Shown: positions 804 through 23,300 of the stretch, piece after piece | How the letters are laid out: each line of letters begins with the position of its first letter | Position numbering within the stretch: position 1 is the stretch's first letter | From: a virus | Lineage: Duplodnaviria > Heunggongvirae > Uroviricota > Caudoviricetes | Virus record (IMG/VR): IMGVR_UViG_2648501669_000017 | Length of the DNA: 26,325 nt | Reading direction: 5' to 3' (one strand) | The notes under the pieces: generated by a model | Database searches by the model: none | What the model was told of the DNA's origin: nothing | The model's input: only the letters and a program-made list of their open reading frames with translations | Made by a program: the position numbers and the translations under genes

Positions 804-1141
804 TTTTTATGTGAGCAGAAGATATTCATCAGAAACGATTATGTAAATCATTTTATTTTGCCAACGGCCTCATTGTCGAAAGAAAAGAATACGCCCGTAT
901 TTCCTGAATGGATTGACTTTTTTATCCAACCACACTTCAGCGCACTGCGTTTAAAAAATGCCTCATTCTTATGCGGAATATCATCATTTCATCATGATGT
1001 CTTTGATGAGCGGTGAACACAATACACTTGCGCTGTCTCTTCAGGATGAATCCCCTGGTCTGGTGCCTGTGGGCTGATGTTGCAGCAAAGCTAAGGTCGC
1101 TTAAACGCTACTCAGTATTCACTTTTCAGAGGATGAAATTT

Positions 1142-4100
1142 ATGAACAGGACCAGTCCCTATTATTGTCGCCGCTCAGTACTTTCCTTATTGATATCTGC
1201 CTTGATATATGCCCCGCCCGGGATGGCTGCCTTCACTACTAATGTTATTGGTGTGGTAAACGATGAGACTGTAGATGGCAACCAAAAAGTGGATGAACGA
1301 GGTACAACAAATAACACTCATATTATCAACCATGGCCAGCAGAATGTTCATGGCGGGGTATCTAATGGAAGTCTTATTGAATCTGGTGGATATCAAGATA
1401 TAGGAAGTCATAACAATTTTGTGGGGCAGGCTAATAATACAACCATTAACGGTGGCAGACAGTCAATTCATGACGGGGGTATTTCCACAGGTACGACAAT
1501 CGAGAGTGGCAATCAGGACGTTTATAAAGGGGGTATCAGCAATGGAACGACAATTAAGGGCGGTGCTTCACGCGTAGAGGGAGGGAGTGCGAATGGAATA
1601 CTCATTGATGGTGGTAGCCAGATAGTAAAAGTTCAAGGGCATGCTGATGGTACAACGATAAATAAGTCTGGCTCTCAGGACGTAGTACAAGGAAGTCTGG
1701 CAACGAACACAACCATAAATGGTGGTCGACAGTATGTTGAACAGAGCACAGTAGAAACAACAACCATTAAAAATGGCGGTGAGCAAAGAGTATATGAGAG
1801 CCGTGCGCTGGACACGACGATTGAAGGCGGAACTCAGTCTCTGAATAGTAAGTCAACGGCAAAAAATACGCATATCTATTCTGGTGGCACGCAAATTGTT
1901 GATAACACCAGCACCTCGGATGTTATTGAAGTTTATTCTGGTGGCGTGCTTGATGTTAGTGGTGGTACGGCAACAAATGTTACCCAGCACGATGGTGCAA
2001 TTTTAAAAACTAACACTAACGGTACGACGGTGAGCGGTACGAATAGTGAAGGTGCATTCTCCATCCACAATCACGTGGCAGACAATGTGTTGCTGGAAAA
2101 CGGTGGTCATTTAGACATAAACGCATATGGTTCGGCAAACAAGACGATTATTAAAGATAAAGGAACAATGTCAGTTTTAACCAATGCTAAAGCTGATGCG
2201 ACCCGAATAGATAATGGCGGGGTTATGGATGTTGCAGGAAACGCGACAAATACCATAATTAATGGTGGCACACAGAATATTAATAATTATGGCATAGCCA
2301 CAGGCACCAATATCAACAGCGGAACGCAAAATATCAAAAGCGGCGGGAAAGCTGACACAACAATTATATCCTCCGGGAGCCGGCAGGTTGTTGAGAAAGA
2401 TGGTACGGCAATTGGCAGCAATATTAGCGCCGGAGGCTCGCTGATTGTCTATACCGGCGGTATTGCACATGGGGTTAACCAGGAGACGGGCAGTGCTTTA
2501 GTTGCCAACACGGGTGCAGGGACTGATATCGAAGGATACAACAAGCTCTCTCACTTCACTATTACCGGAGGGGAGGCTAATTATGTTGTGCTGGAAAATA
2601 CCGGCGAACTGACGGTAGTGGCTAAAACCTCGGCGAAAAATACTACCATTGATACTGGCGGTAAGCTGATTGTCCAGAAGGAGGCTAAAACAGATAGCAC
2701 CAGACTTAATAATGGCGGCGTTCTGGAGGTTCAGGACGGTGGTGAGGCTAAGCATGTTGAGCAACAATCCGGCGGCGCATTAATTGCTTCCACGACCTCC
2801 GGAACACTTATCGAAGGAACCAACAGTTATGGTGATGCTTTCTACATCAGGAATTCAGAAGCTAAAAATGTAGTGCTGGAAAACGCTGGCTCATTAACAG
2901 TCGTCACTGGTTCCCGCGCAGTTGACACGATTATTAATGCCAACGGCAAAATGGATGTTTATGGAAAAGATGTTGGCACTGTACTCAATAGTGCTGGCAC
3001 CCAAACAATATATGCCAGTGCCACTTCTGATAAAGCAAATATCAAAGGTGGCAAGCAAACGGTATATGGTTTAGCCACTGAAGCAAATATCGAAAGTGGT
3101 GAACAAATTGTTGATGGTGGGTCAACAGAGAAAACACACATCAATGGTGGCACGCAAACCGTTCAGAATTATGGTAAGGCAATCAATACCGATATCGTCT
3201 CTGGCCTACAACAAATTATGGCAAACGGGACAGCGGAAGGTTCCATTATTAATGGGGGTTCACAGGTAGTTAATGAGGGCGGTCTGGCTGAAAACTCGGT
3301 GCTTAATGACGGCGGCACACTCGATGTGCGGGAGAAAGGCAGCGCAACGGGGATACAGCAGAGTAGCCAGGGCGCTTTGGTTGCAACCACCAGGGCGACG
3401 CGGGTCACAGGAACACGCGCGGATGGCGTCGCGTTCAGCATCGAGCAGGGTGCGGCGAACAATATCCTGCTGGCAAATGGCGGCGTGTTAACCGTGGAGT
3501 CAGACACCTCTTCTGACAAAACACAGGTCAATATGGGCGGACGGGAGATCGTCAAAACAAAAGCCACTGCGACAGGCACGACGCTCACCGGCGGTGAACA
3601 AATTGTCGAGGGTGTGGCGAATGAGACAACAATTAACGACGGCGGAATACAAACAGTTTCAGCTAACGGAGAGGCAATAAAAACAAAGATCAATGAAGGC
3701 GGTACGCTGACAGTCAACGATAATGGCAAAGCGACAGATATCGTCCAGAACAGCGGTGCCGCTCTCCAGACGAGCACGGCTAACGGTATTGAAATCAGCG
3801 GTACTCACCAGTACGGTACTTTTTCCATTTCCGGCAATTTAGCGACCAATATGTTGCTGGAAAATGGCGGTAATTTATTGGTATTAGCAGGTACCGAAGC
3901 TCGCGACTCCACGGTTGGCAAGGGTGGGGCAATGCAAAACCTGGGTCAGGACTCCGCCACAAAGGTTAACTCTGGCGGGCAATATACCCTTGGGCGGTCA
4001 AAAGATGAGTTTCAGGCTCTGGCCCGGGCAGAAGATCTCCAGGTCGCTGGCGGTACGGCAATCGTCTACGCAGGTACGCTGGCGGATGCATCGGTCAGTG

Positions 4101-6052: not shown

Positions 6053-6976
6053 ATGGAACTGTTGATTTCCCCAAAAAGATTGTGCCTTTATAATGATTCT
6101 GATCGCCGTGTTACAGCTAAGTTTTTGAACTCAGTTGATAACACCCTTGCGAGAGCATCTGGACAAGTGGTTATAGACTTTTCGACAGTAGAATATGCAG
6201 GTGCTGCAGCTAGCGTAAGGTTGTTTGCTATCATCAGTAGGGCTTATTTTATGGCATTCGGCACAAGTAGTCTTCGATTTATTTGGCCGAAAAAAGAAAA
6301 TAATCCGTATGGGCATCGATATATTGTTGGGACGGGGTTATCGATTGCTCTAATGGCAAATACAGTTGATAAATTAGATGTTCTTACTAAGGAACGCAGG
6401 TACTTTCAGTCTGCTGTGGAACCGTATGAACATTGGGCTAAAACGATGGAATTTATTGATTCAAAAGCAATTCTCACATTTGAGCAATATCTTTTGGTCT
6501 CCTCAGCCCTTAGTGAGGCAATGCTGAATGTTTCATATCATGCATATGAACATCCAGACTTTGCTGGTGCTACAGAGCATATGCAAGGGAAACGATGGTG
6601 GCAGAGTTGTTGGTACAACCCTGACACAGACAAGGTTGTCTTTATTATTTATGATCTTGGGCTTGGCATACATAAATCATTTACTTCAGCCTCTCCGTTG
6701 TTTACTGGGTATGACGACGTGACATCTGTGTCAACAGCCCTGACAGGAGGACAGTCCAGATATGTTAACGCTGGACGTGGTAATGGTTCTGAGGATATAA
6801 AGAGACCTATAGGGTCTGGCTGTGCGAATTCAGAATCACTTTTGGTGTTCACAGGGAATGTTAAGTACAGCTATAATTCAAGAAATGAGGTTCCCAAATG
6901 CGAGTGGATACCTGAGTACATGCCGGGAACATTGATTGAATGGTCATTAGTTCCGAGGAGAGGAGAAGATGGTTAA
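6053..6976 (+). CDS. Hypothetical protein with STAS-like N-terminal region and GHKL/HATPase_c-like ATP-binding C-terminal region (anti-sigma-factor-kinase-like)
   Basis: ATG 6053 preceded by TGAGGTG; 307 aa; by-eye motifs EAMLNVSYHA (N-box E-x3-N-x3-HA, aa 155-164), DLGLG (G1, aa 201-205), GRGNGS (G2, aa 241-246), GSG (aa 254-256); N-terminal QVVIDFSTVEYAGAAASVRLF resembles STAS/anti-sigma-antagonist folds. Confidence 0.6.
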   Translation: MELLISPKRLCLYNDSDRRVTAKFLNSVDNTLARASGQVVIDFSTVEYAGAAASVRLFAIISRAYFMAFGTSSLRFIWPKKENNPYGHRYIVGTGLSIALMANTVDKLDVLTKERRYFQSAVEPYEHWAKTMEFIDSKAILTFEQYLLVSSALSEAMLNVSYHAYEHPDFAGATEHMQGKRWWQSCWYNPDTDKVVFIIYDLGLGIHKSFTSASPLFTGYDDVTSVSTALTGGQSRYVNAGRGNGSEDIKRPIGSGCANSESLLVFTGNVKYSYNSRNEVPKCEWIPEYMPGTLIEWSLVPRRGEDG

Positions 6977-7310
6977 CATCGTCATAGCAAGGGATTTCTC
7001 AAAGATGCCATTTGGAAGGTTCAAGTCTGACAGCCCGAACAGTGCTGAGCGTTTTCGTAAGGACTTTCTGGTTCCTGCATTAAAATCTGGTGAGCGTGAG
7101 GTTGTCGTAGATTTTACGGGTATAAATCATGGGATTGGTTCTTCGTTTCTAGAGGAGGCCTTTGGAGGGCTTGTTAGGAAGGAAGGTGTACCTAAGGCTG
7201 ACATTAAGGCAAAACTAATTATAAAAAGTGATTTGCCGTTCTATAAAGATCAAATTTTTAGATATATTGAAATGGCTAATCCAGAAAGGAAGCCTTTCCA
7301 AAGGAGTTGA
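6969..7310 (+). CDS. Small STAS-like protein (DUF4325-like), candidate partner of the upstream ATPase
   Basis: ATG 6969 overlaps the upstream stop (6974-6976) and follows AGGAGAGGAGAAG; 113 aa; EVVVDFTGINHGIGSSFLEEAF is paralogous in pattern to the N-terminal segment of ORF 6053-6976. Confidence 0.55.
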   Translation: MVNIVIARDFSKMPFGRFKSDSPNSAERFRKDFLVPALKSGEREVVVDFTGINHGIGSSFLEEAFGGLVRKEGVPKADIKAKLIIKSDLPFYKDQIFRYIEMANPERKPFQRS

Positions 7311-7311
7311 T

Positions 7312-7941
7312 TTGAACACCGTTGATATTAAGGACACCCTTGCAGGGGTGTCCACTTACGCATGGATGTTTAGTGTTGTGAGTATTATCTTAGTGTTTAT
7401 TGGATGGTTTGTTACTTACAATAATTCACTGAAGATTGCTACTCGCTCTGAATCTAAATCGATTATAGATGCGATTGCTAAAATTTTAAACGAAATATCG
7501 GATTTGTCTCTGGATTACTGGGTTAATAAGTCAACACCACCAGATTCTAATCCATTTAAGAAAAAAAGTTTTAAGAACTCTAATGGATTGCATACTCAGT
7601 CGGCGAAAATATATTTAACGGCAATTCATGGAAAAGCCATACAAATAAATAAATACATTAATCTTCTCGATGAGAGGGGGATAAAAATAACAATTTCGTA
7701 TTTTTCTAATATTATAGATGAAGCTACTATGGAATGTGAGAAATCATATTGTTTTAATAAGTCATATAGGGTTTTTCGCGCTCAGAATGTATCTAGTGCT
7801 TGTATCGATTTCATAATGCATTTATATGATTCTTTTCAAAAAAATCATCCTCCACGTAAGCCTGTATATGTATTGAAAACATTAAAACAATTGGATTGTT
7901 ACTTGGATAAATGGCATAATGAATTATGTGGGCGGCAATAA
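7312..7941 (+). CDS. Hypothetical membrane-anchored protein, AT-rich; start uncertain (TTG 7312 after AAGGAG, or ATG 7366)
   Basis: ORF 7228-7941; the GTG at 7228 would overlap the upstream gene by 83 nt; AAGGAG (7301-7306) + 5 nt + TTG 7312 sits directly after the upstream stop; single N-terminal hydrophobic helix MFSVVSIILVFIGWFVTY; Lys/Asn-rich, visibly low GC. Confidence 0.5.
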   Translation: MNTVDIKDTLAGVSTYAWMFSVVSIILVFIGWFVTYNNSLKIATRSESKSIIDAIAKILNEISDLSLDYWVNKSTPPDSNPFKKKSFKNSNGLHTQSAKIYLTAIHGKAIQINKYINLLDERGIKITISYFSNIIDEATMECEKSYCFNKSYRVFRAQNVSSACIDFIMHLYDSFQKNHPPRKPVYVLKTLKQLDCYLDKWHNELCGRQ

Positions 7942-7953: not shown

Positions 7954-9120
7954 TCATTGTATAATGTATTTGATGGAGCTTTTTCCGTCGTATTCTTTGA
8001 GATATCGACCATAGTGCCTGAAAAGCATCTCCGGCCCTTTATGCCCCATTTGAGCTGCAAGCCAAAACAGGTTTGCTCCTCGGCTGATATGGCTGGTGGC
8101 GAATGTATGCCTGGTTTGATATGGGTTTCTGTAACGAATACCTGCTTTTCGCAATGTTGGCACCCATGCTTTTTTCCTAATTGCATCAGCACTTGCCCAA
8201 GGCTTATTGGTCTTTGGATCTTCAAAGACAGTAGTATCCTTCATGAATGTAAATGGCTTCTGATTTATCAGCGCCAACATTGCCTCTTCTGTCAGTTCAA
8301 CTTTCCGAGTACCTGCTTTTGTCTTTGTCCCTTTGATAACACCGACAACACTTGCGCTCTGGACATAGGCAGTTTTTCCAACAAAGTCGATATCACGCCA
8401 TCGAAGGGCACATAATTCAGAACTACGCAGGCCTGTATGTATAGCGAACCGGAACAGATTTTCCCATTGTTTGTTTCCGGCTGCTGCTAGTAATGCATCA
8501 ACTTCTGCTGGTGATAGCGGATCAACTACGTAGCTGCTTTCTGCTTCTGACTTATCACTTTGGTAGCGCGAAGCTGTTACTAACGATACGGGGTTAATTT
8601 GAAGTACCCCATCGGTCACGGCTTCATCAAGTGCTGACCGCAGGAAAGATAACTGGTTGCGAATTGTTTTTAAGGTCGTTTTCTGATTTTGAATCCACGC
8701 TTTCAGGGTTGCTGGTGTTAATTCACTTGCAGGGCAAATGTGAAGTGAGGCTAACGCACTACGGCATTTTTTATAGCCACCAATCGTAGAGGGTGAAAGT
8801 TTTCTTGTTTCGCAGATTTCAAGATATTCGTCCAGGTACATCTTTACCGTTTTGCCTGCAGCAGCATTACCAAAAATTTTCAAACGAGCAGAACGGGGAA
8901 AATATTCTGCATAAATGAATGTTCCCCTTTCGATCTTATTATGGATTTCGCCGAGTGTACGCTCGGCGTATTTAATGTTCTTTGGTGTTACTTCCAGATT
9001 GGAAAGCGGCTCACGACATCTAACTCCTTTGTAGGTGAAAGTTATATTGATCGTTTCTCCCTGGCGGTGTTTCCTGATTGTTACGCCGCGCGGTAGTTTG
9101 AGCAGTTTTGTCTGGCCCAT
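7954..9120 (-). CDS. int: Phage integrase, tyrosine recombinase family with N-terminal arm-binding domain
   Basis: 388 aa; ATG at 9120 after GTGAGGT; C-terminal catalytic signature ...TRHTFATSHISRGANLFWLAAQMGHKGPEMLFRHYGRY (R...H-x-x-R...Y); N-terminal LPRGVTIRKHRQGETINITFTYKGVRCRE arm-type domain. Confidence 0.9.
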   Translation of the reverse strand: MGQTKLLKLPRGVTIRKHRQGETINITFTYKGVRCREPLSNLEVTPKNIKYAERTLGEIHNKIERGTFIYAEYFPRSARLKIFGNAAAGKTVKMYLDEYLEICETRKLSPSTIGGYKKCRSALASLHICPASELTPATLKAWIQNQKTTLKTIRNQLSFLRSALDEAVTDGVLQINPVSLVTASRYQSDKSEAESSYVVDPLSPAEVDALLAAAGNKQWENLFRFAIHTGLRSSELCALRWRDIDFVGKTAYVQSASVVGVIKGTKTKAGTRKVELTEEAMLALINQKPFTFMKDTTVFEDPKTNKPWASADAIRKKAWVPTLRKAGIRYRNPYQTRHTFATSHISRGANLFWLAAQMGHKGPEMLFRHYGRYLKEYDGKSSIKYIIQ

Positions 9121-9328: not shown

Positions 9329-10195
9329 TTAACGAATAGTGTCGTTACTTTGAAGTACAGCAAATGCCATTAATACTTCTAAAGTATATCTTCTATAAAA
9401 TTTAACAAAACCAACATAGAAAACATAGACGAAGAAAAAGCTAAGCATTATTGAAAGTAAACTATAAAGATAATCACTATGAGTACATAATCGATAAATA
9501 AAGGTTGGAACTGATACCCAAAATGAAATTATAAAGATTAAACATATGTTTCTGCAAAAACCATATAATGCAACATAGTTTTGAATTTTTGTTTGATGTT
9601 GTTTTGAAAACTCATAAACATAATGATATGCCAATCTGAAGAGATCATCATCAAGTCCGTTTTTATCTTGTAATAATTGGCGATTTGTTATGAACTTTTT
9701 CTCATAACCTTCTTTGATCATTAACCATGTTGTATTAGCTAAATGAAATGGTAGAGATTGAGAATAACATAGTTTTTGTGTTGTAAAATCCCATAGTATT
9801 ATTGGGCATAATACGCATTTGATTATGCGATTCTTTATTTTTGTTTTTTTATCAGCGCTTCTCTCATCGCATGATGGGCTACAAATGCTTTCTGAGGTAT
9901 CTATCAATTTTTTAAATAGATATTTGGAAGGATATCCTAATTCTTTATTCATGTGTTTTTCGATAAAAAATGCTGACGTGATAGAAATAAAATGTCCAGC
10001 TATATAAGATATAATAACTATTGAAGCGTAGTTCAAAATGCCAAAGATTTGACTTTGACCTCTGAGCAATTCACTTAAGTCAATAACAATATCTAGATCG
10101 AATGTCAAACCACAGAAATACATTAATAGGATAAAAAAACCACCTGGTATTAAATATCCAAGAAAGTCATAGAATGAGAATGGATTTTGATTCAT
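9329..10195 (-). CDS. Hypothetical polytopic membrane protein (about 4 TM helices, two at each end), very AT-rich cargo gene
   Basis: ORF 9329-10219; the first in-frame ATG is at 10195 with GGAGAG 6 nt upstream; hydrophobic segments FLGYLIPGGFFILLMYFCGLTF, IFGILNYASIVIISYIAGHFISI, ICLIFIISFWVSVPTFIY, LYSLLSIMLSFFFVYVFYVGFV; no motif recognised. Confidence 0.6.
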   Translation of the reverse strand: MNQNPFSFYDFLGYLIPGGFFILLMYFCGLTFDLDIVIDLSELLRGQSQIFGILNYASIVIISYIAGHFISITSAFFIEKHMNKELGYPSKYLFKKLIDTSESICSPSCDERSADKKTKIKNRIIKCVLCPIILWDFTTQKLCYSQSLPFHLANTTWLMIKEGYEKKFITNRQLLQDKNGLDDDLFRLAYHYVYEFSKQHQTKIQNYVALYGFCRNICLIFIISFWVSVPTFIYRLCTHSDYLYSLLSIMLSFFFVYVFYVGFVKFYRRYTLEVLMAFAVLQSNDTIR

Positions 10196-10303
10196 TGTTG
10201 CTCTCCAATAATTGTTCAATTTGTAATATAACCTATATCTATATGTTAATAAATTACTTATATGTTCTTTTATGGCAGAGTTTGAATTCGTACGTGCTGA
10301 TTT

Positions 10304-13962: not shown

Positions 13963-14512
13963 TCATCACTGGAAAGTGGAAAAACAGCCTGAGTGGTACG
14001 TGAAAGCTGTCAGAAAAACTATCGCGGCGTTGCCGGGGGGTTACGCTGAAGCTGCTGAGTGGCTGGATGTAACAGAGAACGCATTATTTAACCGCCTTCG
14101 TGCCGATGGCGATCAGATTTTCCCGCTGGGATGGGCAATGATTTTACAACGTGCTGGTGGCACTCACTTCATTGCCGACGCTGTGGCGCAGTCTGCAAAT
14201 GGCGTCTTTGTGTCTCTTCCTGACGTCGAGGATGTGGACAATGCCGATATTAACCAGCGTTTACTGGAAGTCATTGAACAGATCGGCAGTTATTCAAAAC
14301 AGATTCGTTCGGCAATCGAAGACGGTGTAGTGGAACCGCATGAGAAGACAGCAATTAACGACGAGCTGTACCTCTCAATTTCGAAGCTGCAGGAGCATGC
14401 AGCACTTGTCTACAAAATTTTTTGCGTTTCAGAAAGTAATGACGCCCGCGAGTGTGCAGCTCCGGGCGTCGTGGCGTCGATTGCTTCTGGTTGTGGAGAA
14501 ACTAACGCATGA
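13955..14512 (+). CDS. CII-like / YdaT-type phage regulatory protein (putative)
   Basis: GTG 13955 preceded by AGGAGGT (5-nt spacing); 185 aa; occupies the cII position after cro; family assignment is by position and general resemblance only. Confidence 0.5.
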
Positions 14513-14847
14513 ACAGTTTAACAACACACTACCGTCGCTCGCAACTGATTGCGCTTCCTGTACCGGGTGGAAAAGCGAAGGTGGAGTATTGCTATGCAGT
14601 AAATGTACCAGGTGACAGGGAAATTGTAACCCACAGCTTTGCTGAGTGGGCTGTGGGGGATTTCAACCGGCAGAAGGAGACAGTCCTTTGCGACAAGTTA
14701 ACCGCTGGTTCAAAGATCACTACGGAGTGCCCGTCAGAGTCATTCGTTGGGAGCCGGAAACACAACGGGTTATCTACCTCCGTGAAGGCTATGAGCATGA
14801 GTGCTTCAGCCCGCTCGAACAGTTTCGTCGTAAATTCAGGGAAATAG
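14509..14847 (+). CDS. Hypothetical protein; frame ambiguity with the overlapping ORF 14646-14867 (possible frameshift or a separate small gene starting at TTG 14688)
   Basis: ATG 14509 overlaps the upstream stop (ATGA coupling); the C-terminal half of this frame is Ser-rich and low-complexity, while the overlapping frame encodes protein-like ...[56 protein letters not shown] ending 11 nt into the O-like gene. Confidence 0.4.
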
Positions 14848-14856
14848 AGGTCGGTC

Positions 14857-15798
14857 ATGAGCACTAAATTAACCGGCTATGTATGGGATGGTTGCGCTGC
14901 GTCAGGCATGAAATTATCCAGCGTGGCAATTATGGCCCGCCTGGCTGATTTCAGTAATGACGAAGGTGTGTGCTGGCCATCAATTGAAACTATTGCCCGT
15001 CAGATTGGCGCGGGGATGAGTACCGTCAGAACGGCTATCGCACGGCTGGAAGCAGAAGGCTGGTTAACGCGTAAGGCGCGTCGCCAGGGTAACCGCAATG
15101 CGTCGAATGTTTATCAGCTTAACGTTGCGAAGCTTCAGGCAGTGGCATTTTCTCAACTGTCAGATTCTGACCCGTCAAAATCTGACGCATCAAAATCTGA
15201 CACGTCAAAATTTGATGCGTCGAAATCTGGCAAAAAAGCGGGTTTTCACCCGTCAGAATCTGGCGGGGATCCGTCAGTAAAATCAAAACATGATCCGTCA
15301 GATAAAAAACCTTCTCGTCCGGACGCTTCGCAACCGGACACGCAGACGGCTGAACAGGATTTTTTAACTCGCCATCCTGATGCGGTTGTATTCAGCCCTA
15401 AAAAGCGCCAGTGGGGAACGCAGGATGATTTGACCTGCGCACAGTGGCTCTGGAAAAAAATCATTGCCCTGTACGAGCAGGCCGCCGAATGTGACGGCGA
15501 GGTGGTTCGTCCCAAAGAACCGAACTGGACAGCCTGGGCAAACGAAATTCGCCTGATGTGTGTGCAGGATGGTCGTACTCACAAACAAATCTGCGAGATG
15601 TACAGCCGCGTCAGCCGCGATCCGTTCTGGTGCCGTAACGTGCTCAGCCCGTCGAAGCTGCGGGAAAAATGGGATGAGCTTTCCCTGCGCTTATCGCCGT
15701 CCATCAGCACATACACAGAAAAACGCGAAGACCCGTATTTCAAATCCAGTTACGACAACGTGGACTACAGCCAGATCCCGGCAGGATTCAGGGGGTGA
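14857..15798 (+). CDS. Replication initiation protein (lambda O-like: N-terminal HTH iteron-binding domain, internal repeat region, C-terminal replisome-organiser domain)
   Basis: 313 aa; ATG 14857 after AGAGG; N-terminal wHTH (SSVAIMARLADFSNDEGVCWPSIETIARQIGAGMSTVRTAIARLEAEGW); internal SKSDx peptide repeats encoded by DNA iterons; position after cro/cII. Confidence 0.8.
   Translation: MSTKLTGYVWDGCAASGMKLSSVAIMARLADFSNDEGVCWPSIETIARQIGAGMSTVRTAIARLEAEGWLTRKARRQGNRNASNVYQLNVAKLQAVAFSQLSDSDPSKSDASKSDTSKFDASKSGKKAGFHPSESGGDPSVKSKHDPSDKKPSRPDASQPDTQTAEQDFLTRHPDAVVFSPKKRQWGTQDDLTCAQWLWKKIIALYEQAAECDGEVVRPKEPNWTAWANEIRLMCVQDGRTHKQICEMYSRVSRDPFWCRNVLSPSKLREKWDELSLRLSPSISTYTEKREDPYFKSSYDNVDYSQIPAGFRG
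15161..15263. repeat. Putative phage origin of replication: about four 14-15-bp iterons (consensus GTCAAAATCTGAC, each an internal GTCA...TGAC inverted repeat) inside the O-like gene
   Basis: Direct reading: GTCAAAATCTGAC (15174), ATCAAAATCTGAC (15189), GTCAAAATTTGAT (15203), GTCGAAATCTGGC (15218), flanked by degenerate copies, followed by an A-rich stretch. Confidence 0.6.
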
Positions 15799-16289
15799 GC
15801 ATGAGTCTTTTGAATGACGTTCAGAAATTCATTGAAGCCCATCCGGGGTGTACTTCCGGAGACATTGCGGATGCTTTTGCAGGTTACTCACGGCAGCGCG
15901 TTCTGCAGTCTGCAAGCAAGTTACGTCAGAGTGGGCGTGTGGCTCACCGTTGTGAAGGAGATACACGCAGACATTTCCCGCGCCTGACTGAGAGAGCGCA
16001 GGAGCCGGAACCACAACCAGTTCGTGAAACCAGACCTGTGCGCAATTTCTATGTCGGCACTAACGACCCGCGGGTGATTTTGTGCCTGACCCGCCAGGCG
16101 GAAGAACTGGAGTCCAGGGGCTTATACCGTCGTGCTGCAACGGTGTGGATGGCGGCATTCCGTGAAAGCCACTCCCAGCCAGAACGAAACAATTTTCTGG
16201 CGCGTCGTGAACGGTGTTTACGGAAAAGCAGTAAGCGGGCTGCATCAGGTGAAGAGTGGTATCTCTCAGGGAATTACGTGGGGGCTTAA
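15795..16289 (+). CDS. PerC-family-like transcriptional regulator with N-terminal winged-helix region
   Basis: 164 aa; start ATG overlaps the O-like stop; segment LESRGLYRRAATVWMAAF...ERNNFLARRERC resembles the conserved core of PerC/Pch activators as I recall them (QQGLWRRAARRW...C..RR.FC). Confidence 0.5.
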   Translation: MSMSLLNDVQKFIEAHPGCTSGDIADAFAGYSRQRVLQSASKLRQSGRVAHRCEGDTRRHFPRLTERAQEPEPQPVRETRPVRNFYVGTNDPRVILCLTRQAEELESRGLYRRAATVWMAAFRESHSQPERNNFLARRERCLRKSSKRAASGEEWYLSGNYVGA

Positions 16290-16942
16290 TGAGTAATAAA
16301 TATTGCCAGGCGCTGGCGGAACTGCGGAACAAACCAGCCCATGAACTGAAGGAAGTGGGCGATCAGTGGCGCACGCCGGACAACATTTTCTGGGGAATTA
16401 ACACTCTGTTTGGCCCGTTTGTTCTGGATCTGTTTACTGACGGTGATAACGCCAAATGTGCTGCGTATTACACGGCGGAAGACAACGCGCTGGCGCATGA
16501 CTGGTCAGAACGCCTTGCGGAGCTTAAAGGTGCTGCCTTTGGTAATCCCCCATACAGCCGCGCCAGTCAGCATGAGGGGCAATACATCACCGGCATGCGT
16601 TACATCATGAAGCATGCCAGTGCCATGCGTGATAAAGGCGGGCGCTATGTTTTCCTGATCAAAGCTGCCACCAGCGAAGTGTGGTGGCCGGAAGATGCAG
16701 ATCATATTGCTTTTATTCGCGGGCGTATTGGTTTTGAACTGCCTGCCTGGTTTATCCCGAAGGATGAGAAGCAGGTGCCGACAGGCGCTTTCTTCGCTGG
16801 TGCTATTGCTGTTTTCGACAAGACCTGGAAGGGACCGGCAATCAGCTACATCGGGCGCTATGAACTTGAGGCATGTGGTGAGGCCTTTCTGGCGCAGGTT
16901 CGCCAGCAGGCAGAAAAACTGGTCAGGGAGATGGCGGCATGA
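16289..16942 (+). CDS. Phage Dam-family N6-adenine DNA methyltransferase (YfdM-type)
   Basis: Start ATG 16289 overlaps the upstream TAA (TAATG); catalytic motif FGNPPYS; conserved WRTPD and DLFTDG segments typical of the phage N-6-adenine-methyltransferase family. Confidence 0.8.
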   Translation: MSNKYCQALAELRNKPAHELKEVGDQWRTPDNIFWGINTLFGPFVLDLFTDGDNAKCAAYYTAEDNALAHDWSERLAELKGAAFGNPPYSRASQHEGQYITGMRYIMKHASAMRDKGGRYVFLIKAATSEVWWPEDADHIAFIRGRIGFELPAWFIPKDEKQVPTGAFFAGAIAVFDKTWKGPAISYIGRYELEACGEAFLAQVRQQAEKLVREMAA

Positions 16943-17265
16943 CGACGTTAACTCAATGCCAGCAGCAGGTGCTGGATATGCTGATTTCTTATCAGAAAGA
17001 ACGTGGCTTCCCGCCAACCAATCAGGAGGTGGCAACCATGCTGGGATACCGTTCAGTGAATGCAGCGGTGGAGCATCTTCGCGCACTGGAGAAAAAAGGC
17101 GTCATCACGATAAAGCGTGGCGTGGCCCGGGGCATCACGCTTCATACCGCGGTGAAGGACGACGACAGCGAGGCGGTCGGGATTATCCGCTCACTGCTTG
17201 CCGGTGAGGAAAACGCAAGGCTGCGTGCAGCCCACTGGTTACATGAGAGGGGCCTGAAAGTATGA
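16939..17265 (+). CDS. LexA N-terminal DNA-binding-domain-like protein (winged helix), lacking a peptidase domain
   Basis: 108 aa; QQQVLDMLISYQKERGFPPTNQEVATMLGYRSVNAAVEHLRALEKKGVI parallels the LexA N-terminus ([50 protein letters not shown]); ATGA overlap with the upstream gene. Confidence 0.7.
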   Translation: MTTLTQCQQQVLDMLISYQKERGFPPTNQEVATMLGYRSVNAAVEHLRALEKKGVITIKRGVARGITLHTAVKDDDSEAVGIIRSLLAGEENARLRAAHWLHERGLKV

Positions 17266-17652
17266 AGCTGATCCTGCCTTTTCCGCCCAGCGTGAACACG
17301 TACTGGCGACACCCCAACAAAGGGGCGTTTGCTGGTAAGAGCCTGATAAGCGCGGCTGGGCGAAAATTCCAGAGCGCGGCGTGCGCAGCAATAGTTGAGC
17401 AGTTACGTCGTCTGCCGAAACCAACGTCGGCACCTGCTTCAGTGGAGATCGTGTTGTTTCCTCCGGATAACAGGATCCGCGATCTGGACAACTATAACAA
17501 GGCGCTGTTTGACGCCCTGACCCACGCGGGGGGTGTGGGAAGACGACAGTCAGGTGAAAAGAATGCTGGTGGAGTGGGGACCGGTTATCCCGGAAGGGAA
17601 GGTCGAGATCACTATCAGTAAGTACGAGAAAACGGCGGGTGCAGCTGCCTGA
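17262..17652 (+). pseudogene. rusA: rusA Holliday-junction resolvase with a +1 frameshift in a G6 homopolymer (intact frame would end at 17652)
   Basis: N-terminal 90 aa are RusA-like (...RIRDLDNYNKALFDALTHAG); after the GGGGGG run at 17528-17533 the annotated frame gives nonsense (GVGRRQSGEKNAGGVGTGYPGREGRDHYQ), while the +1 frame gives RusA-like ...VWEDDSQVKRMLVEWGPVIPEGKVEITISKYE. Confidence 0.75.
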
Positions 17653-17671
17653 TTAAGAGGAGAAACGAAGT

Positions 17672-18481
17672 ATGAATAATCTGATGGTCATTGATGGTAT
17701 TGAAGTTCGTCGTGATGCTTATGGGCGTTACAGCCTGAACGATCTGCATCGCGCAGCAGTAGCATCTGGTGCAAATGCCAGAACCAAGGAGCCAGGAAAG
17801 TTTCTTTCCAGCCAACAAACTGTTGAGCTTGTTCATGAATTGACCAACACCCAGAATTTGGGTGTTGACCCGGTGAGTGTGATTCATGGGGGAAATGAAC
17901 GGGGAACGTATGTCTGTAAGGAACTGGTGTATGCCTATGCAATGTGGATCAGCCCGTCATTCCATCTGAAGGTGATCCGTACTTTCGACAAGGTAACCAG
18001 CGCACCGGAAAAATTATCCGGACTGGCTGCTGACAAGATGCAGGCTGGTGTGATTCTGCTGGACTTTATGCGCCGGGAGTTAAACCTGTCTAACTCATCA
18101 GTGCTTGGTGCCTGTCAGAAACTCCAGGAGGCTGTTGGCTTACCGAATCTGGCACCGCGCTATGCCATTGATGCTCCTGCTGACGCGCCTGATGGCTCAA
18201 GCCGCCCCACGCTGTCACTGAGTGCACTGCTGAAGCAGTATGGTATCCGCCTGACAGCTAATCAGGCATATCACCAGATGGTGAAACTGGGGATCGTCGA
18301 GCAGCGCGAACGATACAGCCGTACCGCGATTAACAACATCAAAAAATTCTGGTCGCTGACAGCGAAAGGCTGCATGTTCGGCAAGAACATCACCAGTCCC
18401 GCAAATCCGCGCGAGACGCAGCCGCACTTCTTCGAATCCCGATTCCCTGAGCTGTTAAAGCTGCTCGATACCGTTCATTGA
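17672..18481 (+). CDS. KilA-N domain protein (antirepressor/Bro-like family)
   Basis: ATG 17672 after AAGAGGAG; N-terminal ~100 aa fit the KilA-N pattern (...LNDLHRAAVASGANARTKEPGKFLSSQQTVELVHEL...VIHGGNERGTYVCKELVYAYAMWISPSFHLKVIRTFD). Confidence 0.7.
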   Translation: MNNLMVIDGIEVRRDAYGRYSLNDLHRAAVASGANARTKEPGKFLSSQQTVELVHELTNTQNLGVDPVSVIHGGNERGTYVCKELVYAYAMWISPSFHLKVIRTFDKVTSAPEKLSGLAADKMQAGVILLDFMRRELNLSNSSVLGACQKLQEAVGLPNLAPRYAIDAPADAPDGSSRPTLSLSALLKQYGIRLTANQAYHQMVKLGIVEQRERYSRTAINNIKKFWSLTAKGCMFGKNITSPANPRETQPHFFESRFPELLKLLDTVH

Positions 18482-18482
18482 G

Positions 18483-19478
18483 GTGACCGTGAGAGCACTA
18501 CTGACCCCTGAAATTGCCCCGCGTATGGGGATCGTATTGTTCAGACCAGGTTCAGAGCTGATGCCCCTGTTTATGCAGGGGCGTGTCCTGCTGGAGCCTG
18601 AGCCGGAACGTTATTCATCTTTCGCCAGTGGTGCTGTTCCGGCGGCATCACAACCGCTGGTGGATGATCCTGCCGTTCGGGCCGTGTTCCGCAATGAGGC
18701 AGTGATCCGTCGTGCTGGTGGCGTGGAATGTCTTGAAAGCTGGTTACTTTGTGAAAAAGGCTGCCAGTGGCCTCATTCCGACTGGCACAGCGAGAACATG
18801 ACCACAATGCGACACGCTCCGGGCGCAATCCGTCTGTGCTGGCACTGCGATAACCAGCTGCGCGATCAGTTCACGGAACGGCTGGAATCAATGGCAACGG
18901 ATAACTGTGCCCGCTGGGTGTTGTCTGTTGTGCGTCGGGATCTCGGTTTTGATGACAGTCACGTTGTGACAATGCCGGAACTGTGCTGGTGGCTGATTCG
19001 TAATGACCTGGCGGATGCCTTACCGGAAAGTGCAGCCCGTAAGGCACTGAGATTACCGAAGCCTGTTGTGCCGTCTGTCACCCGGGAAAGTGACCTTGTG
19101 CCTTCGGTTCCTGCCACCAGCATCATCCAGGATAAGGCGAAAAAGGTGCTGGCGCTGAAAGTGGATCCGGAGTCGCCGGAGTCTTTTATGTTACGCCCAA
19201 AACGTCGCCGCTGGGTTAATGAAAAGTACACGCGCTGGGTTAAGACACAGCCGTGTGCATGTTGTGGAAAGCCCGCTGATGATCCCCACCACCTGATAGG
19301 CCACGGTCAAGGGGGAATGGGTACAAAAGCGCATGACCTCTTTGTGTTGCCTTTGTGCAGAAAGCATCACGACGAGCTGCATGCGGATACCGTGGCATTT
19401 GAAGAGAAGTATGGCTCCCAGCTGGAGCTGATATTTCGTTTTATCGATCGTGCGCTGGCAATTGGCGTGCTGGCCTGA
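18483..19478 (+). CDS. DUF968-type phage protein with C-terminal Cys/His-rich (zinc-finger/HNH-like) motif
   Basis: GTG start (18483 or 18489); C-terminal ...[49 protein letters not shown] pattern as recalled for DUF968 proteins in the nin regions of lambdoid prophages. Confidence 0.65.
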
Positions 19479-19495
19479 TTTTGTGGAGGAAGTTG

Positions 19496-19867
19496 ATGCG
19501 TGATATTCAAATGGTTCTTGAACGTTGGGGGGCATGGGCGGCTAATAATCATGAGGATGTGACCTGGTCGTCCATTGCTGCCGGTTTTAAGGGATTACTT
19601 CCTTCAAAAGTAAAATCCCGTCCGCAATGTTGTGACGATGACGCGATGATCATTTGCGGGTGCATGGCCCGTCTGAAAAAGAACAACAGCGATTTGCACG
19701 ATTTATTAGTAGATTATTATGTAGGTGGTATGACGTTTATGGCGCTTGCCCGTAAACATGGGCGTTCTGATTGCTGGGTTGGGCGCTTATTGCAAAAGGC
19801 AGAAGGCATCATTGAAGGTATGTTGATAATGTTAGAAATAGAATTGGAAATGGACTCAAATATCTAG
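19496..19867 (+). CDS. Q: Late-gene antiterminator Q (QuuD / phage-82-type Q family)
   Basis: ATG 19496 with GGAGGA 5 nt upstream (track start 19481 is TTG); [34 protein letters not shown]...[17 protein letters not shown] matches my recollection of DLP12 QuuD; sits just before the late region. Confidence 0.8.
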
Positions 19868-19994
19868 AAAGATATTTTATGAGTATCTGGATTTTTAATT
19901 TGTATTGTTAGCATGAAATTAAGGAGGGTGGACTGTTTGTGCTTTATATTAATGTTTTTGTGGGGATTTAATAACCACTGATTTATTTGAGGGT

Positions 19995-20029
19995 GGCGCT
20001 AATGTACAAGGTTTTTAGTAATTAGCGCC
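19995..20029. terminator. 9-bp inverted repeat GGCGCTAAT...ATTAGCGCC (17-nt loop) with a downstream T-rich tract on the plus strand: candidate tR'-type late terminator and/or terminator of the minus-strand gene 20040-21491
   Basis: Direct reading; located between the Q stop and the 3' end of the convergent ATPase gene. Confidence 0.4.
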
Positions 20030-20039
20030 TGCTGGTTTG

Positions 20040-21491
20040 TTATTTTATTTTGCTTACTATATTTGTAATAAGTGGGTCAAATTTCTCATCAATAATTTCA
20101 ATATATTTTTTTATTGCTAAAGTTCTAATTACTTCCTCCTCACATTCTGCTTCTTTAGCAATTGCTTGAGTGTAATTGTGATGATCACTAATCCCTTCCT
20201 TTTTTATTAACCAATCAAAATCAATATGATACTCCTTGTAGAGGAATTTTTTTACTTCCTCATGTTGAAATACTTCTACTTCTGGTGGCCTATTGCCAGG
20301 GAAAGAAAATAAATCATCTTTAATGTTTTCTCCAACATCTGCATCTCTTACGGCAATAACATTAAGGCCTGCTTTCTTGAATACCTCGACTGCTTGTCGG
20401 ACTGCATCTTTATCTCCAATATCAGTGATTTGAATGGATTTAAGAATGTCTCTCCGCTTTGCTCTAATTACTTCACTAAGTAAAACTTTTGCAAACTGGT
20501 CTTCTACGCAAATATGCAGCCCTTTAAACTGCCCATCAGACAGTATTGATCTCACATGAGTTGTTGAAATTCCATCTTTGATATAGACACCAGTCTGATC
20601 TCTAATAAGTAATTTTCGTGCATCAGGAGGTAAAGCATTTAATATCACACTTGAGTGTGTTGATAATATTATTTGATGTTTTCTACGTTGACATACTTCC
20701 ATTAAATATTTTGCAAATTCATACTGTGCGCTTTCATGAAGAGATGTTTCTGGTTCTTCTAGTACGAAAAGACTTTGCTCTGGAGCTGTTTCAAGCATAT
20801 CAACCGTATAAAGAACTCTTCCTTCGCCAAACCCCATGTTATTTTCAGAATAAGAATACCCAAGTCTTTCAACAATACCAATTTCTGAACGACGTGCTCT
20901 ATGAGAAATTCCTTGGAATGCGATATCATCATATGGATGACCTATTATTTTTGCCATCTTCAATATTACTGAATGGTCGACGCTTCTTCTCTCTGTTAAA
21001 TCAAAGTCTTTACCGCCATAAACACTTATATCTCTACGTTCTACTTTTGGAATATAGACAGTAAAACCAATGTAAAAACAGTGTCTTTCTGGTTGTCTTT
21101 TATATCCAGACCAAGAAGACTTTATGCGAGTGACAGTCACATCTTGTGTTTTCGTTGAATCATTTGTTTCATATTTATAAATGACACTGGCGTCATTATC
21201 GAAAGGGGCTGGATCGGCTTTAGATACAGGGAAAAAATCTTTAATATATAATCTCTTATATTCACGGGCTGTAACTGGTTTTTTATATGCGCATATTGCT
21301 AACTGCCCAAGAGTGCTTTTCCCAGCGCCGTTTAGCCCTGATATTGCAGTTACCGGAAAATTTATATTTAATGTTAGTTTTTTTATTCCTCGAAATCCAT
21401 TTATCTCTAGACTTTTAATTACGGAGCCAAAGTTTGAGTATCTATTTTTATCAAAGTACATGCATTTTAGTATATTTTTTATGTCTGACAT
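20040..21491 (-). CDS. OLD-family-like ATPase-nuclease: N-terminal ABC-type ATPase + C-terminal TOPRIM-like domain (candidate anti-phage defence protein)
   Basis: 483 aa; ATG 21491 with AGGAAAG 8 nt upstream; Walker A GLNGAGKST (aa 52-60), signature-like SENNMGFGEG (aa 214-223), Walker B LFVLEEPE (aa 241-248), H-loop LSTHS (aa 276-280); TOPRIM-like acidic motifs HICVEDQ (E330) and IAVRDADVGEN (D383/D385); visibly AT-rich; transcribed against the late operon. Confidence 0.75.
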   Translation of the reverse strand: MSDIKNILKCMYFDKNRYSNFGSVIKSLEINGFRGIKKLTLNINFPVTAISGLNGAGKSTLGQLAICAYKKPVTAREYKRLYIKDFFPVSKADPAPFDNDASVIYKYETNDSTKTQDVTVTRIKSSWSGYKRQPERHCFYIGFTVYIPKVERRDISVYGGKDFDLTERRSVDHSVILKMAKIIGHPYDDIAFQGISHRARRSEIGIVERLGYSYSENNMGFGEGRVLYTVDMLETAPEQSLFVLEEPETSLHESAQYEFAKYLMEVCQRRKHQIILSTHSSVILNALPPDARKLLIRDQTGVYIKDGISTTHVRSILSDGQFKGLHICVEDQFAKVLLSEVIRAKRRDILKSIQITDIGDKDAVRQAVEVFKKAGLNVIAVRDADVGENIKDDLFSFPGNRPPEVEVFQHEEVKKFLYKEYHIDFDWLIKKEGISDHHNYTQAIAKEAECEEEVIRTLAIKKYIEIIDEKFDPLITNIVSKIK

Positions 21492-22247: not shown

Positions 22248-23300
22248 ATGAAAAATACTGTAAAAATAAACAGTGTTGATTTAATCAACGCTGATTGCCT
22301 GCATTTTATTCAGTCCCTGCCTGATGATTCCATTGACCTGATTGTTACCGATCCGCCTTACTTCAAGGTGAAACCCAACGGTTGGGACAATCAGTGGAAA
22401 GGGGACGAAGATTACCTTAAGTGGCTGGACCACTGTCTGGCCCAGTTCTGGCGGGTGTTGAAACCTGCCGGAAGCCTTTACCTGTTCTGTGGGCATCGCC
22501 TGGCATCTGATATTGAGATCATGATGCGTGAACGTTTCAACGTGCTTAACCATATCATCTGGGCGAAGCCGTCCGGACGTTGGAATGGGTGTAATAAAGA
22601 AAGTCTGCGCGCATATTTTCCTGCCACAGAGCGCGTTCTGTTTGCTGAACATTACCAGGGGCCATATCGCGGCAAAAGTGACGACTATGCGGCAAAAGAA
22701 AGGGAACTCAAACAGCACATAATGGCACCGCTGATATCGTATTTCAGGGATGCTCGTGCCGAACTGGGTATAACGGCAAAACAAATTGCCGAAGCCACAG
22801 ATAAGAAAAATATGGTTTCCCACTGGTTTGGTGCCAGTCAGTGGCAGTTGCCGAATGAGGCTGACTATCGGAAGTTACAGGCACTGTTTTCCCGTATAGC
22901 GGCAGAGAAGTTTCAGGAACAACAACTGGAACAACCACACCACCAGCTGGTGGCATCTTATGATTCACTGAATCGCAAATATTCTGAATTGCTGGATGAG
23001 TTTAAATCTCTCCGGCGCTATTTCTCCGTATCAGTCTCTGTGCCTTATACCGATGTCTGGACGCATAAGCCCGTTCAGTTCTACCCGGGTAAACATCCGT
23101 GCGAGAAACCGGCGGATATGCTCCGGCAAATAATCAATGCCAGTAGTCGACCTGGTGATCTGGTTGCTGATTTCTTTATGGGATCCGGTTCCACAATAAA
23201 AGCAGCAATGGCGCTGGGGCGTCGGGCGTTAGGTGTTGAACTTGAGTCAGAGCGGTTTAATCAGACGGTGAAAGAGGTAAGTGAACTGGTGGGGAAATAA
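22248..23300 (+). CDS. Orphan DNA methyltransferase, beta-class (motif IV DPPY N-terminal, motif I FxGxG C-terminal); N6-adenine or N4-cytosine specific
   Basis: 350 aa; IVTDPPYF (aa 32-39) and ADFFMGSGST (aa ~308-317); central insertion with an HTH-like segment (ITAKQIAEATD); no adjacent restriction endonuclease recognisable. Confidence 0.85.
   Translation: MKNTVKINSVDLINADCLHFIQSLPDDSIDLIVTDPPYFKVKPNGWDNQWKGDEDYLKWLDHCLAQFWRVLKPAGSLYLFCGHRLASDIEIMMRERFNVLNHIIWAKPSGRWNGCNKESLRAYFPATERVLFAEHYQGPYRGKSDDYAAKERELKQHIMAPLISYFRDARAELGITAKQIAEATDKKNMVSHWFGASQWQLPNEADYRKLQALFSRIAAEKFQEQQLEQPHHQLVASYDSLNRKYSELLDEFKSLRRYFSVSVSVPYTDVWTHKPVQFYPGKHPCEKPADMLRQIINASSRPGDLVADFFMGSGSTIKAAMALGRRALGVELESERFNQTVKEVSELVGK

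What the first reader, a model, noticed from the sequence alone, without database searches (positions are those of the whole stretch)
17521..17652. rusA interrupted by a single-base expansion in a G6 homopolymer
The RusA-like reading frame is intact up to ...ALFDALTHAG, then a run of six G at 17528-17533 shifts the frame; the +1 frame continues with a RusA-like C-terminus (...VWEDDSQVKRMLVEWGPVIPEGKVEITISKYE) to a stop at 17650-17652. This is either a sequencing or assembly error in a homopolymer, a genuine inactivating mutation, or a slippage-prone tract that could allow switchable expression of a Holliday-junction resolvase.
Basis: seen in the sequence. Interest (0 to 1): 0.5.

Follow-up and report, generated by a model that had tools for sequence, protein, structure and literature searches.

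The report
Frameshifted prophage rusA pseudogene
A Holliday-junction resolvase gene (rusA) in an E. coli lambdoid prophage is broken by one extra base in a run of G's; the same break recurs in independent isolates, so it is a real but ordinary inactivating mutation rather than an error or a switch.

Summary
Window 17528-17533 is G6, followed by TG. Frame 0 (17262-17621) gives RusA residues 1-90 plus 29 junk residues. The +1 frame (17533-17652) gives the RusA C-terminus. Deleting one G restores a 129-aa RusA found on at least 1000 public contigs.

The frameshift removes the equivalent of catalytic Asp91 and the C-terminal 39 residues, so the product should be inactive.

The same GGGGGGTG allele occurs in at least 3 other independent assemblies, two of them with private SNPs nearby. 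An assembly error is therefore unlikely.

The tract is a mutational hotspot across the wider allele family:
- In frame: G5TG (commonest) and G7.
- Frameshifted: G4TG, G6, G8 and G6TG.

Over 5.2 kb the window differs from one G8 allele only at 17534 (T versus G). All close haplotypes carry G7 or G8. The window's allele is therefore more likely G7 to G8 slippage followed by a G-to-T change than a simple G5-to-G6 expansion, though the latter is not excluded.

In-frame alleles predominate wherever the tract could be typed, including all 30 listed phage records. This argues against programmed recoding. The interrupted G6 run shows no length variation among its carriers.

Verdict: an ordinary, already annotated kind of prophage pseudogene. 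Interest is low.

The parts
17262..17652 (+). Whole rusA pseudogene (391 nt; intact alleles are 390 nt).
   Evidence: PGAP annotates the equivalent 391-nt gene in two complete genomes as 'RusA family crossover junction endodeoxyribonuclease, frameshifted'. The one-G-deleted translation equals P0013, a 129-aa RusA found on at least 1000 contigs.
17262..17621 (+). Frame-0 ORF of 119 aa: RusA residues 1-90 (including the Asp74/Asp76/Lys80 equivalents of E. coli D70/D72/K76), then 29 out-of-frame residues and TAA.
   Evidence: The exact product P0001 is on 71 public contigs.
17528..17535 (+). The polymorphic tract GGGGGGTG: a G6 run at 17528-17533, then T 17534 and G 17535. Alleles seen elsewhere are GGGTGTG and GGGGGTG (in frame, Val), GGGGGGG (in frame, Gly), and GGGGTG, GGGGGG and GGGGGGGG (frameshifted).
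17534..17534 (+). The T that interrupts the run. It is the only difference between the window and the G8 allele of locus L005 across window 14262-19461.
17533..17652 (+). The +1-frame remainder of 39 codons from GTG. It holds RusA residues 91-129, including the WEDD motif with the Asp95 equivalent of catalytic D91, and ends at TGA 17650-17652.
   Evidence: PMC1636454.
16939..17265 (+). Upstream LexA_DNA_bind-domain gene. Its stop overlaps the rusA start (ATGA), so the two lie in the same operon.
17672..18481 (+). Downstream KilA-N gene with its own AAGAGGAG ribosome-binding site. The frameshift moves the upstream stop from 19 nt to 50 nt before its ATG.

Best explanation
This is a genuine, inherited +1 frameshift that has turned the rusA gene of a CPS-53/KpLE1-type lambdoid prophage into a pseudogene. 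The shift falls after Gly90. The product keeps two of the three metal-binding aspartates but loses the third (the equivalent of E. coli RusA Asp91) and the last 39 residues of the fold, so no active resolvase should be made. The mutation sits in a short G-rich tract (codons Ala-Gly-Val/Gly-Trp) that behaves as a replication-slippage hotspot across this allele family. The longer the run, the more often it is found frameshifted. The most likely history for this window (inferred, about 60%) has three steps: a Val-to-Gly T>G change made a G7 run; slippage made it G8, causing the frameshift; then a G>T change, or a short gene-conversion patch from a G5TG allele, gave GGGGGGTG. The alternative (about 40%) is a direct G5TG to G6TG insertion from an unsampled parent. 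rusA lies in the nin-like region of a repressed prophage and is dispensable to a ruvABC+ host, so the loss is expected to be neutral and simply persists in the lineage.
For: SHOWN, the break and its consequence:
- The frame break is present, and both halves are RusA.
- The cation site of RusA is D70/D72/D91 (PMC1636454). The alignment places the break between G86 and the W-x-D-D motif.

SHOWN, the allele is reproducible:
- GGGGGGTG occurs in L006, L007, L013 and the IMG/VR locus L024.
- L006 and L013 each carry one private SNP, so they are independent isolates.
- L007 and L024 match the window 100% over 6.4 kb and 11.7 kb.

SHOWN, the hotspot pattern in complete E. coli genomes with identical 30-nt flanks:
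- G5TG: 258 records. G4TG: 2. G6TG: 0. G7: 13. G8: 2.
- A G6 (-1) allele sits on a G7 backbone in L111.
- G8 is found on three rusA backbones.
- A G7 locus and a G8 locus are identical over 6360 nt apart from the tract.
- The G4TG product is on 94 + 40 contigs, the G6TG/G8 product on 71, and the G7 product on 121.

SHOWN, haplotypes:
- The window differs from L005 (G8) at one position, 17534, in 5200 nt.
- The nearest G7 is 15 differences away and the nearest G5TG 36-43, over 2517 aligned columns.
- The synonymous T96 marker is linked to G7/G8/G6TG and is present in only 1 of 72 G5TG alleles.

SHOWN, other evidence of decay:
- Relatives have rusA broken in unrelated ways: an IS insertion, a deletion, and a +A frameshift.

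ESTABLISHED KNOWLEDGE:
- Indel rate in E. coli depends on homopolymer run length, and 8-bp G.C runs are hot spots (PMC8510543).
- rusA of prophage DLP12 is normally silent and matters only when activated in ruv mutants (PMC10956419).
Against: - No read data were available, so a systematic miscall at this motif cannot be formally excluded.
- The direction G8 to G6TG is inferred from haplotype proximity and diversity, not proven. It requires the new T to land exactly where the common allele has T. One G5TG allele carrying T96 exists (L025), though its flanks are distant.
- The only G7 on the T96 backbone comes from a single assembly (F5505-C1). PGAP also flags its ymfL as frameshifted, so its G7 could be a homopolymer miscall.
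- Loss of function is inferred from the alignment, not measured.
- Counts by contig are inflated by clonal sampling.
Confidence: 0.85

Rival explanations
1. Sequencing or assembly error: the true sequence has G5 and rusA is intact.
For: Homopolymers are classic error sites. No complete RefSeq E. coli genome has this allele. One long-read assembly in the family (F5505-C1) has another frameshift nearby.
Against: The identical allele is present in at least 3 assemblies from different projects, two of them with private SNPs. Up to six further 'similar places' were not shown. A 6-base run is short for a systematic short-read indel error. The sister G8 allele is also seen in MEGAHIT, Logan and isolate assemblies.
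Confidence: 0.04
2. Phase-variable (contingency) tract: slippage in the G run reversibly switches RusA on and off in the population.
For: Length polymorphism (G6, G7, G8) occurs in sister alleles, including G7 versus G8 on a 6.36-kb identical haplotype and G8 on several backbones. About 13% of G7-class alleles in complete genomes are shifted, against about 0.8% of G5-class alleles.
Against: The window's run is only G6 and is interrupted by T. All four typed carrier loci (L006, L007, L013, L024; L007 and L024 are probably one assembly) have the same length as the window. The in-frame G5TG state is by far the commonest allele wherever the tract could be typed. No selective reason for switching a silent prophage resolvase is known. 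Run-length-dependent neutral decay explains the same data (PMC8510543). rusA is also broken by an IS element, a deletion and another frameshift elsewhere.
Confidence: 0.06
3. Recoding: a +1 ribosomal slip of tRNA-Gly on GGG_G, or RNA polymerase slippage, restores some full-length RusA from the shifted gene.
For: A +1 shift on GGG-G (17529-17532) would give exactly the wild-type sequence ...THAG-VWEDD. The G run is Shine-Dalgarno-like, and the rare codons AGA and CGA follow in frame 0 (read directly; inference only).
Against: The shifted architecture is not conserved. 258 complete E. coli genome records carry exact in-frame G5TG against 4 with a shifted allele, and all 30 listed phage records are in frame at 390 nt. 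The A-site codon at the would-be shift is the common GGT, so no pause is expected. G/C runs are not known sites of efficient transcriptional slippage in E. coli (own knowledge).
Confidence: 0.03

Closest known systems
RusA Holliday-junction resolvase of lambdoid phages and prophages (E. coli DLP12 RusA, PDB 1Q8R/2H8C; phage 82, SfII, SfV and mEp460 rusA)
   Different: The reading frame is broken after residue 90. The D91-equivalent Asp and the C-terminal 39 residues are out of frame, so this is a pseudogene rather than a functional member.
PGAP-annotated 'frameshifted' RusA pseudogenes in E. coli S1-IND-02-A (NZ_CP145646.1) and ETEC E1441 (NZ_LR883012.1)
   Same: Same gene, same 391-nt length, same 119-aa frame-0 product, same rusA backbone and the same neighbouring genes.
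   Different: Those carry an uninterrupted G8. The window has GGGGGGTG, which differs by one base (17534 T).
Homopolymeric-tract phase-variable (contingency) genes, e.g. poly-G tracts in Neisseria or Haemophilus surface and restriction-modification genes (own knowledge)
   Same: A frameshift caused by length change in a mononucleotide G run, with several lengths seen among relatives.
   Different: The run is short (5-8, and 6 here) and interrupted. The gene is a silent prophage recombination function. No within-strain heterogeneity or reversibility has been shown, and the in-frame state dominates.

Membership tests
RusA (PF05866) Holliday-junction resolvase | Sequence match to the family profile over its full length | tested here: met
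   The one-G-deleted sequence scores 56.4 bits (cutoff 22.8) over profile positions 1-123 of 124. As it stands, the ORF covers only 1-94 of 124 at 29.4 bits.
RusA (PF05866) Holliday-junction resolvase | Three acidic metal-site residues (E. coli D70, D72, D91) in one polypeptide | tested here: not met
   The alignment to 1Q8R/2H8C puts D74/D76 in the frame-0 ORF, but the D91 equivalent (D95) lies only in the +1 frame. The role of these residues is described in PMC1636454.
RusA (PF05866) Holliday-junction resolvase | Uninterrupted reading frame of about 120-130 codons | tested here: not met
   The frame breaks at 17528-17535. Relatives with the same length are annotated as frameshifted pseudogenes.
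RusA (PF05866) Holliday-junction resolvase | Junction-specific endonuclease activity / suppression of ruv mutants | not testable with these tools
   This needs a biochemical or genetic assay.
Phase-variable homopolymeric contingency locus | Uninterrupted mononucleotide tract long enough for frequent slippage (typically 7-8 or more) | tested here: not met
   The window has G6 followed by T. Sister alleles have G7 or G8.
Phase-variable homopolymeric contingency locus | Tract-length polymorphism between otherwise identical haplotypes | tested here: inconclusive
   Met for G7 versus G8 (L003 versus L004: 0 mismatches and 1 gap in 6360 nt), although the G7 comes from a single assembly that has another frameshift nearby. 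Not met for the window's allele: all GGGGGGTG carriers have the same length.
Phase-variable homopolymeric contingency locus | Within-culture length heterogeneity and reversible ON/OFF expression | not testable with these tools
   No read data or cultures were available.
Programmed +1 ribosomal frameshift gene (prfB-like) | The shifted two-frame architecture is conserved across homologues | tested here: not met
   In-frame alleles dominate: 258 exact G5TG and 13 G7 against 4 shifted alleles in complete genomes, 116 of 118 IMG/VR loci, and all 30 listed phage records at 390 nt.
Programmed +1 ribosomal frameshift gene (prfB-like) | A slow or stop codon in the A site at the shift site | tested here: not met
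   The A-site codon after GGG is GGT, a common Gly codon (codon usage from own knowledge).
Assembly artefact | The variant is absent from independent assemblies of related strains | tested here: not met
   The same allele is present in GCA_030467065.1, GCA_000754845.1, GCA_946411915.1 and IMG 2740892423.

The most novel reading that the evidence does not exclude
The G-rich tract of this rusA allele family (G5TG, G7, G8, G6, G4) could be a true contingency tract. It would let a prophage population toggle its Holliday-junction resolvase on and off. The window's G-to-T interruption would then be a 'locked-off' derivative.
Probability: 0.05. Interest if true: 0.5.

Novelty: already known. Interest (0 to 1): 0.13.

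Why it matters
In practice it matters little. It tells an annotator to call 17262-17652 a rusA pseudogene rather than two small ORFs or an assembly error, and not to correct the base. The modest wider point is that one short G tract in a very common prophage gene accounts for several recurrent, independently arising frameshift alleles. It is therefore a handy natural marker of run-length-dependent slippage and of prophage lineage. It is also a caution that 'expected G5' depends on which allele family is the true parent.

Tried and rejected
- Scans of JGI metagenome contigs and of GTDB species-representative genomes for the tract pattern found nothing, so they gave no independent census.
- A look-up of the hypothetical G9 product (typed by mistake for the G6 product) and of the true G6 (-1) product found neither in the protein collection. 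The G6 allele is known only from IMG/VR locus L111.
- I looked for a G5TG allele on the window's exact backbone. None exists among complete E. coli genomes; the best is 1 SNP away. The one IMG/VR G5TG allele with the T96 marker (L025) has another SNP and distant flanks, so it does not settle the parentage.
- The literature search for rusA with frameshift or homopolymer found no report of this tract. The PRFect paper's mention of 'RusA/RuvC' traces to a ruvC paper and is not evidence of programmed frameshifting in rusA.
- A split-gene reading, with the 39-codon GTG ORF at 17533 as a separate functional gene, was rejected. It has no Pfam match of its own and no properly spaced ribosome-binding site. 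It overlaps the frame-0 ORF, and in other genomes the same ORF is simply the leftover of rusA genes broken by an IS element or a deletion.
- Structure prediction was not run because the PDB alignment already locates the break.

Full report
**1. The observation**

The window reads ...GACGCCCTGACCCACGC-GGGGGG-TG-TGGGAAGACGAC.... The six G's are at 17528-17533, T is at 17534 and G at 17535.

- The ORF from ATG 17262 runs in frame 0 through ...NYNKALFDALTHAG. It then reads 29 unrelated residues to TAA 17619-17621, giving 119 aa.
- The +1 frame is open from 17521. It reads VWEDDSQVKRMLVEWGPVIPEGKVEITISKYEKTAGAAA to TGA 17650-17652.
- Deleting one G gives a 129-aa protein. It matches Pfam RusA end to end (56.4 bits against a 22.8 cutoff). 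It aligns to E. coli RusA structures 1Q8R/2H8C at E=4e-18.
- The ORF as it stands matches only the first three-quarters of the profile.

The description is therefore accurate in every detail. A G6 run is not rare in itself: there are six in the window. The significant feature is the frame break inside a recognisable gene.

**2. Context**

- The left 7.9 kb of the window is chromosome. It includes a 1569-aa AIDA/pertactin autotransporter.
- From the integrase (7954-9120, minus strand) rightwards lies a lambdoid prophage of the CPS-53/KpLE1 type, with yfdP/Q/R/N-like genes.
- Its gene order is: cI-like repressor, cro, ymfL, an HTH_36 replication protein, PerC, Dam, a LexA_DNA_bind protein, rusA, KilA-N, DUF968/HNH, Q, a minus-strand AAA_15 ATPase, a type II methylase, holin, a 158-aa ORF with no Pfam match in the endolysin position, and Rz.
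- rusA starts in an ATGA overlap with the upstream gene. It is followed by KilA-N, which has its own ribosome-binding site.
- The neighbouring ORFs checked here have intact reading frames.

**3. Consequence for the protein**

- By alignment, D74, D76 and K80 of this RusA correspond to E. coli D70, D72 and K76. They lie upstream of the break.
- D95, in the WEDD motif, corresponds to D91 and lies downstream, in the other frame.
- D70, D72 and D91 form the cation-binding site, and D70N alone abolishes catalysis (PMC1636454).
- The 119-aa product thus lacks one metal ligand and the last 39 residues of the fold. Loss of resolvase activity is a strong inference, but it has not been measured.

**4. 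Real or artefact**

- The exact 119-aa product is on 71 public contigs.
- The DNA of 13 such loci (L001-L013; L008 is the same record as L002) shows that two different tracts encode it: GGGGGGGG (G8) and GGGGGGTG, the window's allele.
- The window's allele is in GCA_030467065.1 (L006), GCA_000754845.1 (L007) and GCA_946411915.1 (L013). It is also in IMG/VR UViG 2740892423_000015 (L024).
- L007 and L024 are 100% identical to the window over 6.4 kb and 11.7 kb, and are probably the same or a sister assembly.
- L006 and L013 each carry one private SNP, and L006 has a different Q/late region. They are independent isolates.
- An assembly error recurring identically at a 6-base run across different projects is unlikely. 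I put that explanation at about 4%.

**5. The tract is polymorphic across the allele family**

In-frame alleles:
- GGGTGTG and GGGGGTG, which encode Ala-Gly-Val-Trp.
- GGGGGGG, which encodes Ala-Gly-Gly-Trp.

Frameshifted alleles:
- GGGGTG (-1), GGGGGG (-1 from G7), GGGGGGGG (+1 from G7) and GGGGGGTG.

Counts in the 5,426 complete RefSeq E. coli genomes, using the window's exact 30-nt flanks:

| Tract | Records |
|---|---|
| G5TG | 258 |
| G4TG | 2 |
| G6TG | 0 |
| G7 | 13 (about 6 strains) |
| G8 | 2 |

- The two G8 records are both annotated 'frameshifted' by PGAP.
- About 0.8% of G5-class alleles are shifted, against about 13% of G7-class alleles.
- In the large protein collection the G4TG product is on 94 + 40 contigs, the G8/G6TG product on 71, and the G7 product on 121.
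- In IMG/VR, 116 of 118 sampled loci are G5TG. Only three contigs in the whole collection have six or more G's.
- G8 sits on three different rusA backbones, and G6 sits on a G7 backbone.
- One G7 locus and one G8 locus are identical over 6360 nt apart from the tract.

This is the pattern expected from replication slippage whose rate rises with run length. That dependence is documented for E. coli, where 8-bp G.C runs are indel hot spots (PMC8510543).

**6. Where the window's allele came from**

- Across window 14262-19461, locus L005 (G8) differs from the window at a single position, 17534 (G instead of T). L001 and L009 (G8) differ at three positions.
- Over 2517 gap-free aligned columns the nearest G7 haplotype is 15 differences away. 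The nearest G5TG haplotypes are 36-43 away.
- No complete E. coli genome has G5TG on the window's rusA backbone; the best is one SNP away.
- The synonymous marker T96 is found with G7, G8 and G6TG, but in only 1 of 72 G5TG alleles.
- The G6TG carriers are nearly invariant, whereas G8 carriers span several haplotypes.

Together these favour the path G5TG to G7 (T>G, Val to Gly), then G8 (slippage, frameshift), then GGGGGGTG. The last step would be a G>T change, or a short conversion patch from a co-resident G5TG allele. In the shifted frame it is silent (GGG to GGT).

The direct path, G5TG plus one G, is not excluded for three reasons:
- It avoids the coincidence of T reappearing at the ancestral position.
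- The only T96 G7 comes from one assembly, which has another frameshift nearby.
- A T96 G5TG allele exists (L025), though on distant flanks.

I put the split at about 60:40. Either way the gene is out of frame by +1.

**7. Switch or recoding?**

Points against a switch at this allele:
- The run is short and interrupted, and its carriers show no length variation.
- The in-frame state dominates everywhere.
- All 30 listed matches in isolated phage genomes are 390 nt and in frame.
- rusA in relatives is also destroyed by an IS insertion at nt 251-254, by a deletion, and by a +A frameshift at another site. This is what neutral decay of a dispensable prophage gene looks like.
- RusA in K-12's DLP12 prophage is itself silent, and matters only when activated in ruv mutants (PMC10956419).

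On recoding:
- A +1 ribosomal slip on GGG-G would regenerate the wild-type sequence exactly.
- However, the A-site codon is a common GGT, and the shifted architecture is derived and rare rather than conserved.
- I give the switch reading about 6% and recoding about 3%.

**8. Comparison with what is known, and verdict**

This is a RusA-family gene by sequence and position, but it fails the family's functional requirements. It does not have a single intact frame, and the three acidic residues are not in one chain. It is a pseudogene.

Equivalent frameshifted rusA genes are already flagged in RefSeq genomes, and the truncated product is already in NCBI nr. The kind of event, a homopolymer frameshift in a prophage accessory gene, is textbook. 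The only added value is the finer picture: a recurrently hit G tract with at least four frameshift alleles, and the window's allele as a one-base neighbour of a G8 allele.

- Novelty: already known.
- Interest: low (about 0.13).

Noticed in passing
window 20040-21491 (- strand): A 483-aa AAA_15/AAA_21 ATPase sits as a reverse-strand moron between the Q antiterminator and the lysis genes. Its best PADLOC match is the candidate defence protein HEC-04 (E=3.9e-47), with weaker matches to ATPase-Toprim, AriA and GajA. Related prophages carry different cargo at this position (an NYN protein, a 339-aa ORF, a porin), so it looks like a variable defence or moron slot.
   Followed up: partly
window 22248-23300 (+): A 350-aa N6/N4 type II DNA methyltransferase lies just upstream of the holin (PADLOC MTase_II, E=2e-150). 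It is in addition to the Dam-like methylase at about 16289-16942. No partner endonuclease was looked for.
   Followed up: no
window 1013-5722 (+): A 1569-aa AIDA-repeat / pertactin / autotransporter beta-domain adhesin lies on the chromosomal side of the prophage.
   Followed up: no
window 6053-7941 (+): Three ORFs lie between the autotransporter and the integrase: 307 aa with no Pfam hit, 113 aa with a DUF4325 STAS-like domain, and 237 aa with no hit. None matches PADLOC. They are absent from most related genomes (query coverage). This may be an unrecognised cargo module at the prophage end.
   Followed up: partly
L144 1470-3120; L145 about 2934-3120; L147 2730-3120: In other E. coli genomes the same rusA is destroyed in other ways: an IS3-family insertion at rusA nt about 251-254 (L144), a deletion of the 5' part (L145), and a +A frameshift at AACAA(A)GG (L147). 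These alleles carry the GGT form of the tract (GCGGGTGTGTGG).
   Followed up: yes
E. coli 6409 (NZ_CP010371.1) and EC26 (NZ_CP060880.1); proteins P0028, P0030: A -1 allele of the same tract (GGGGTG, product ...THAGCGKTTVR*, 97 aa) is found in two complete genomes and on 94 + 40 contigs of the large collection. It is at least as common as the +1 alleles.
   Followed up: partly
L003 (F5505-C1, NZ_CP024257.1) versus L004 (GCA_049979345.1): The two loci are identical over 6360 nt except G7 versus G8 in rusA. F5505-C1 also has ymfL annotated as frameshifted. Either this is very recent slippage, or there are homopolymer miscalls in that assembly.
   Followed up: partly
window 19481-20000 versus L005, L006, L010: The same, almost identical early-region haplotype (14262-19461) is joined to different Q genes and late regions in different genomes: Q of 113-127 aa, or a 250-aa Antiterm-family protein. 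This shows a mosaic recombination joint just downstream of DUF968.
   Followed up: no
window 9329-10219 (- strand): A 296-aa early-left-operon ORF has no Pfam match and a weak PADLOC hit to Csx27 (E=2.6e-6). The hit is probably spurious.
   Followed up: no
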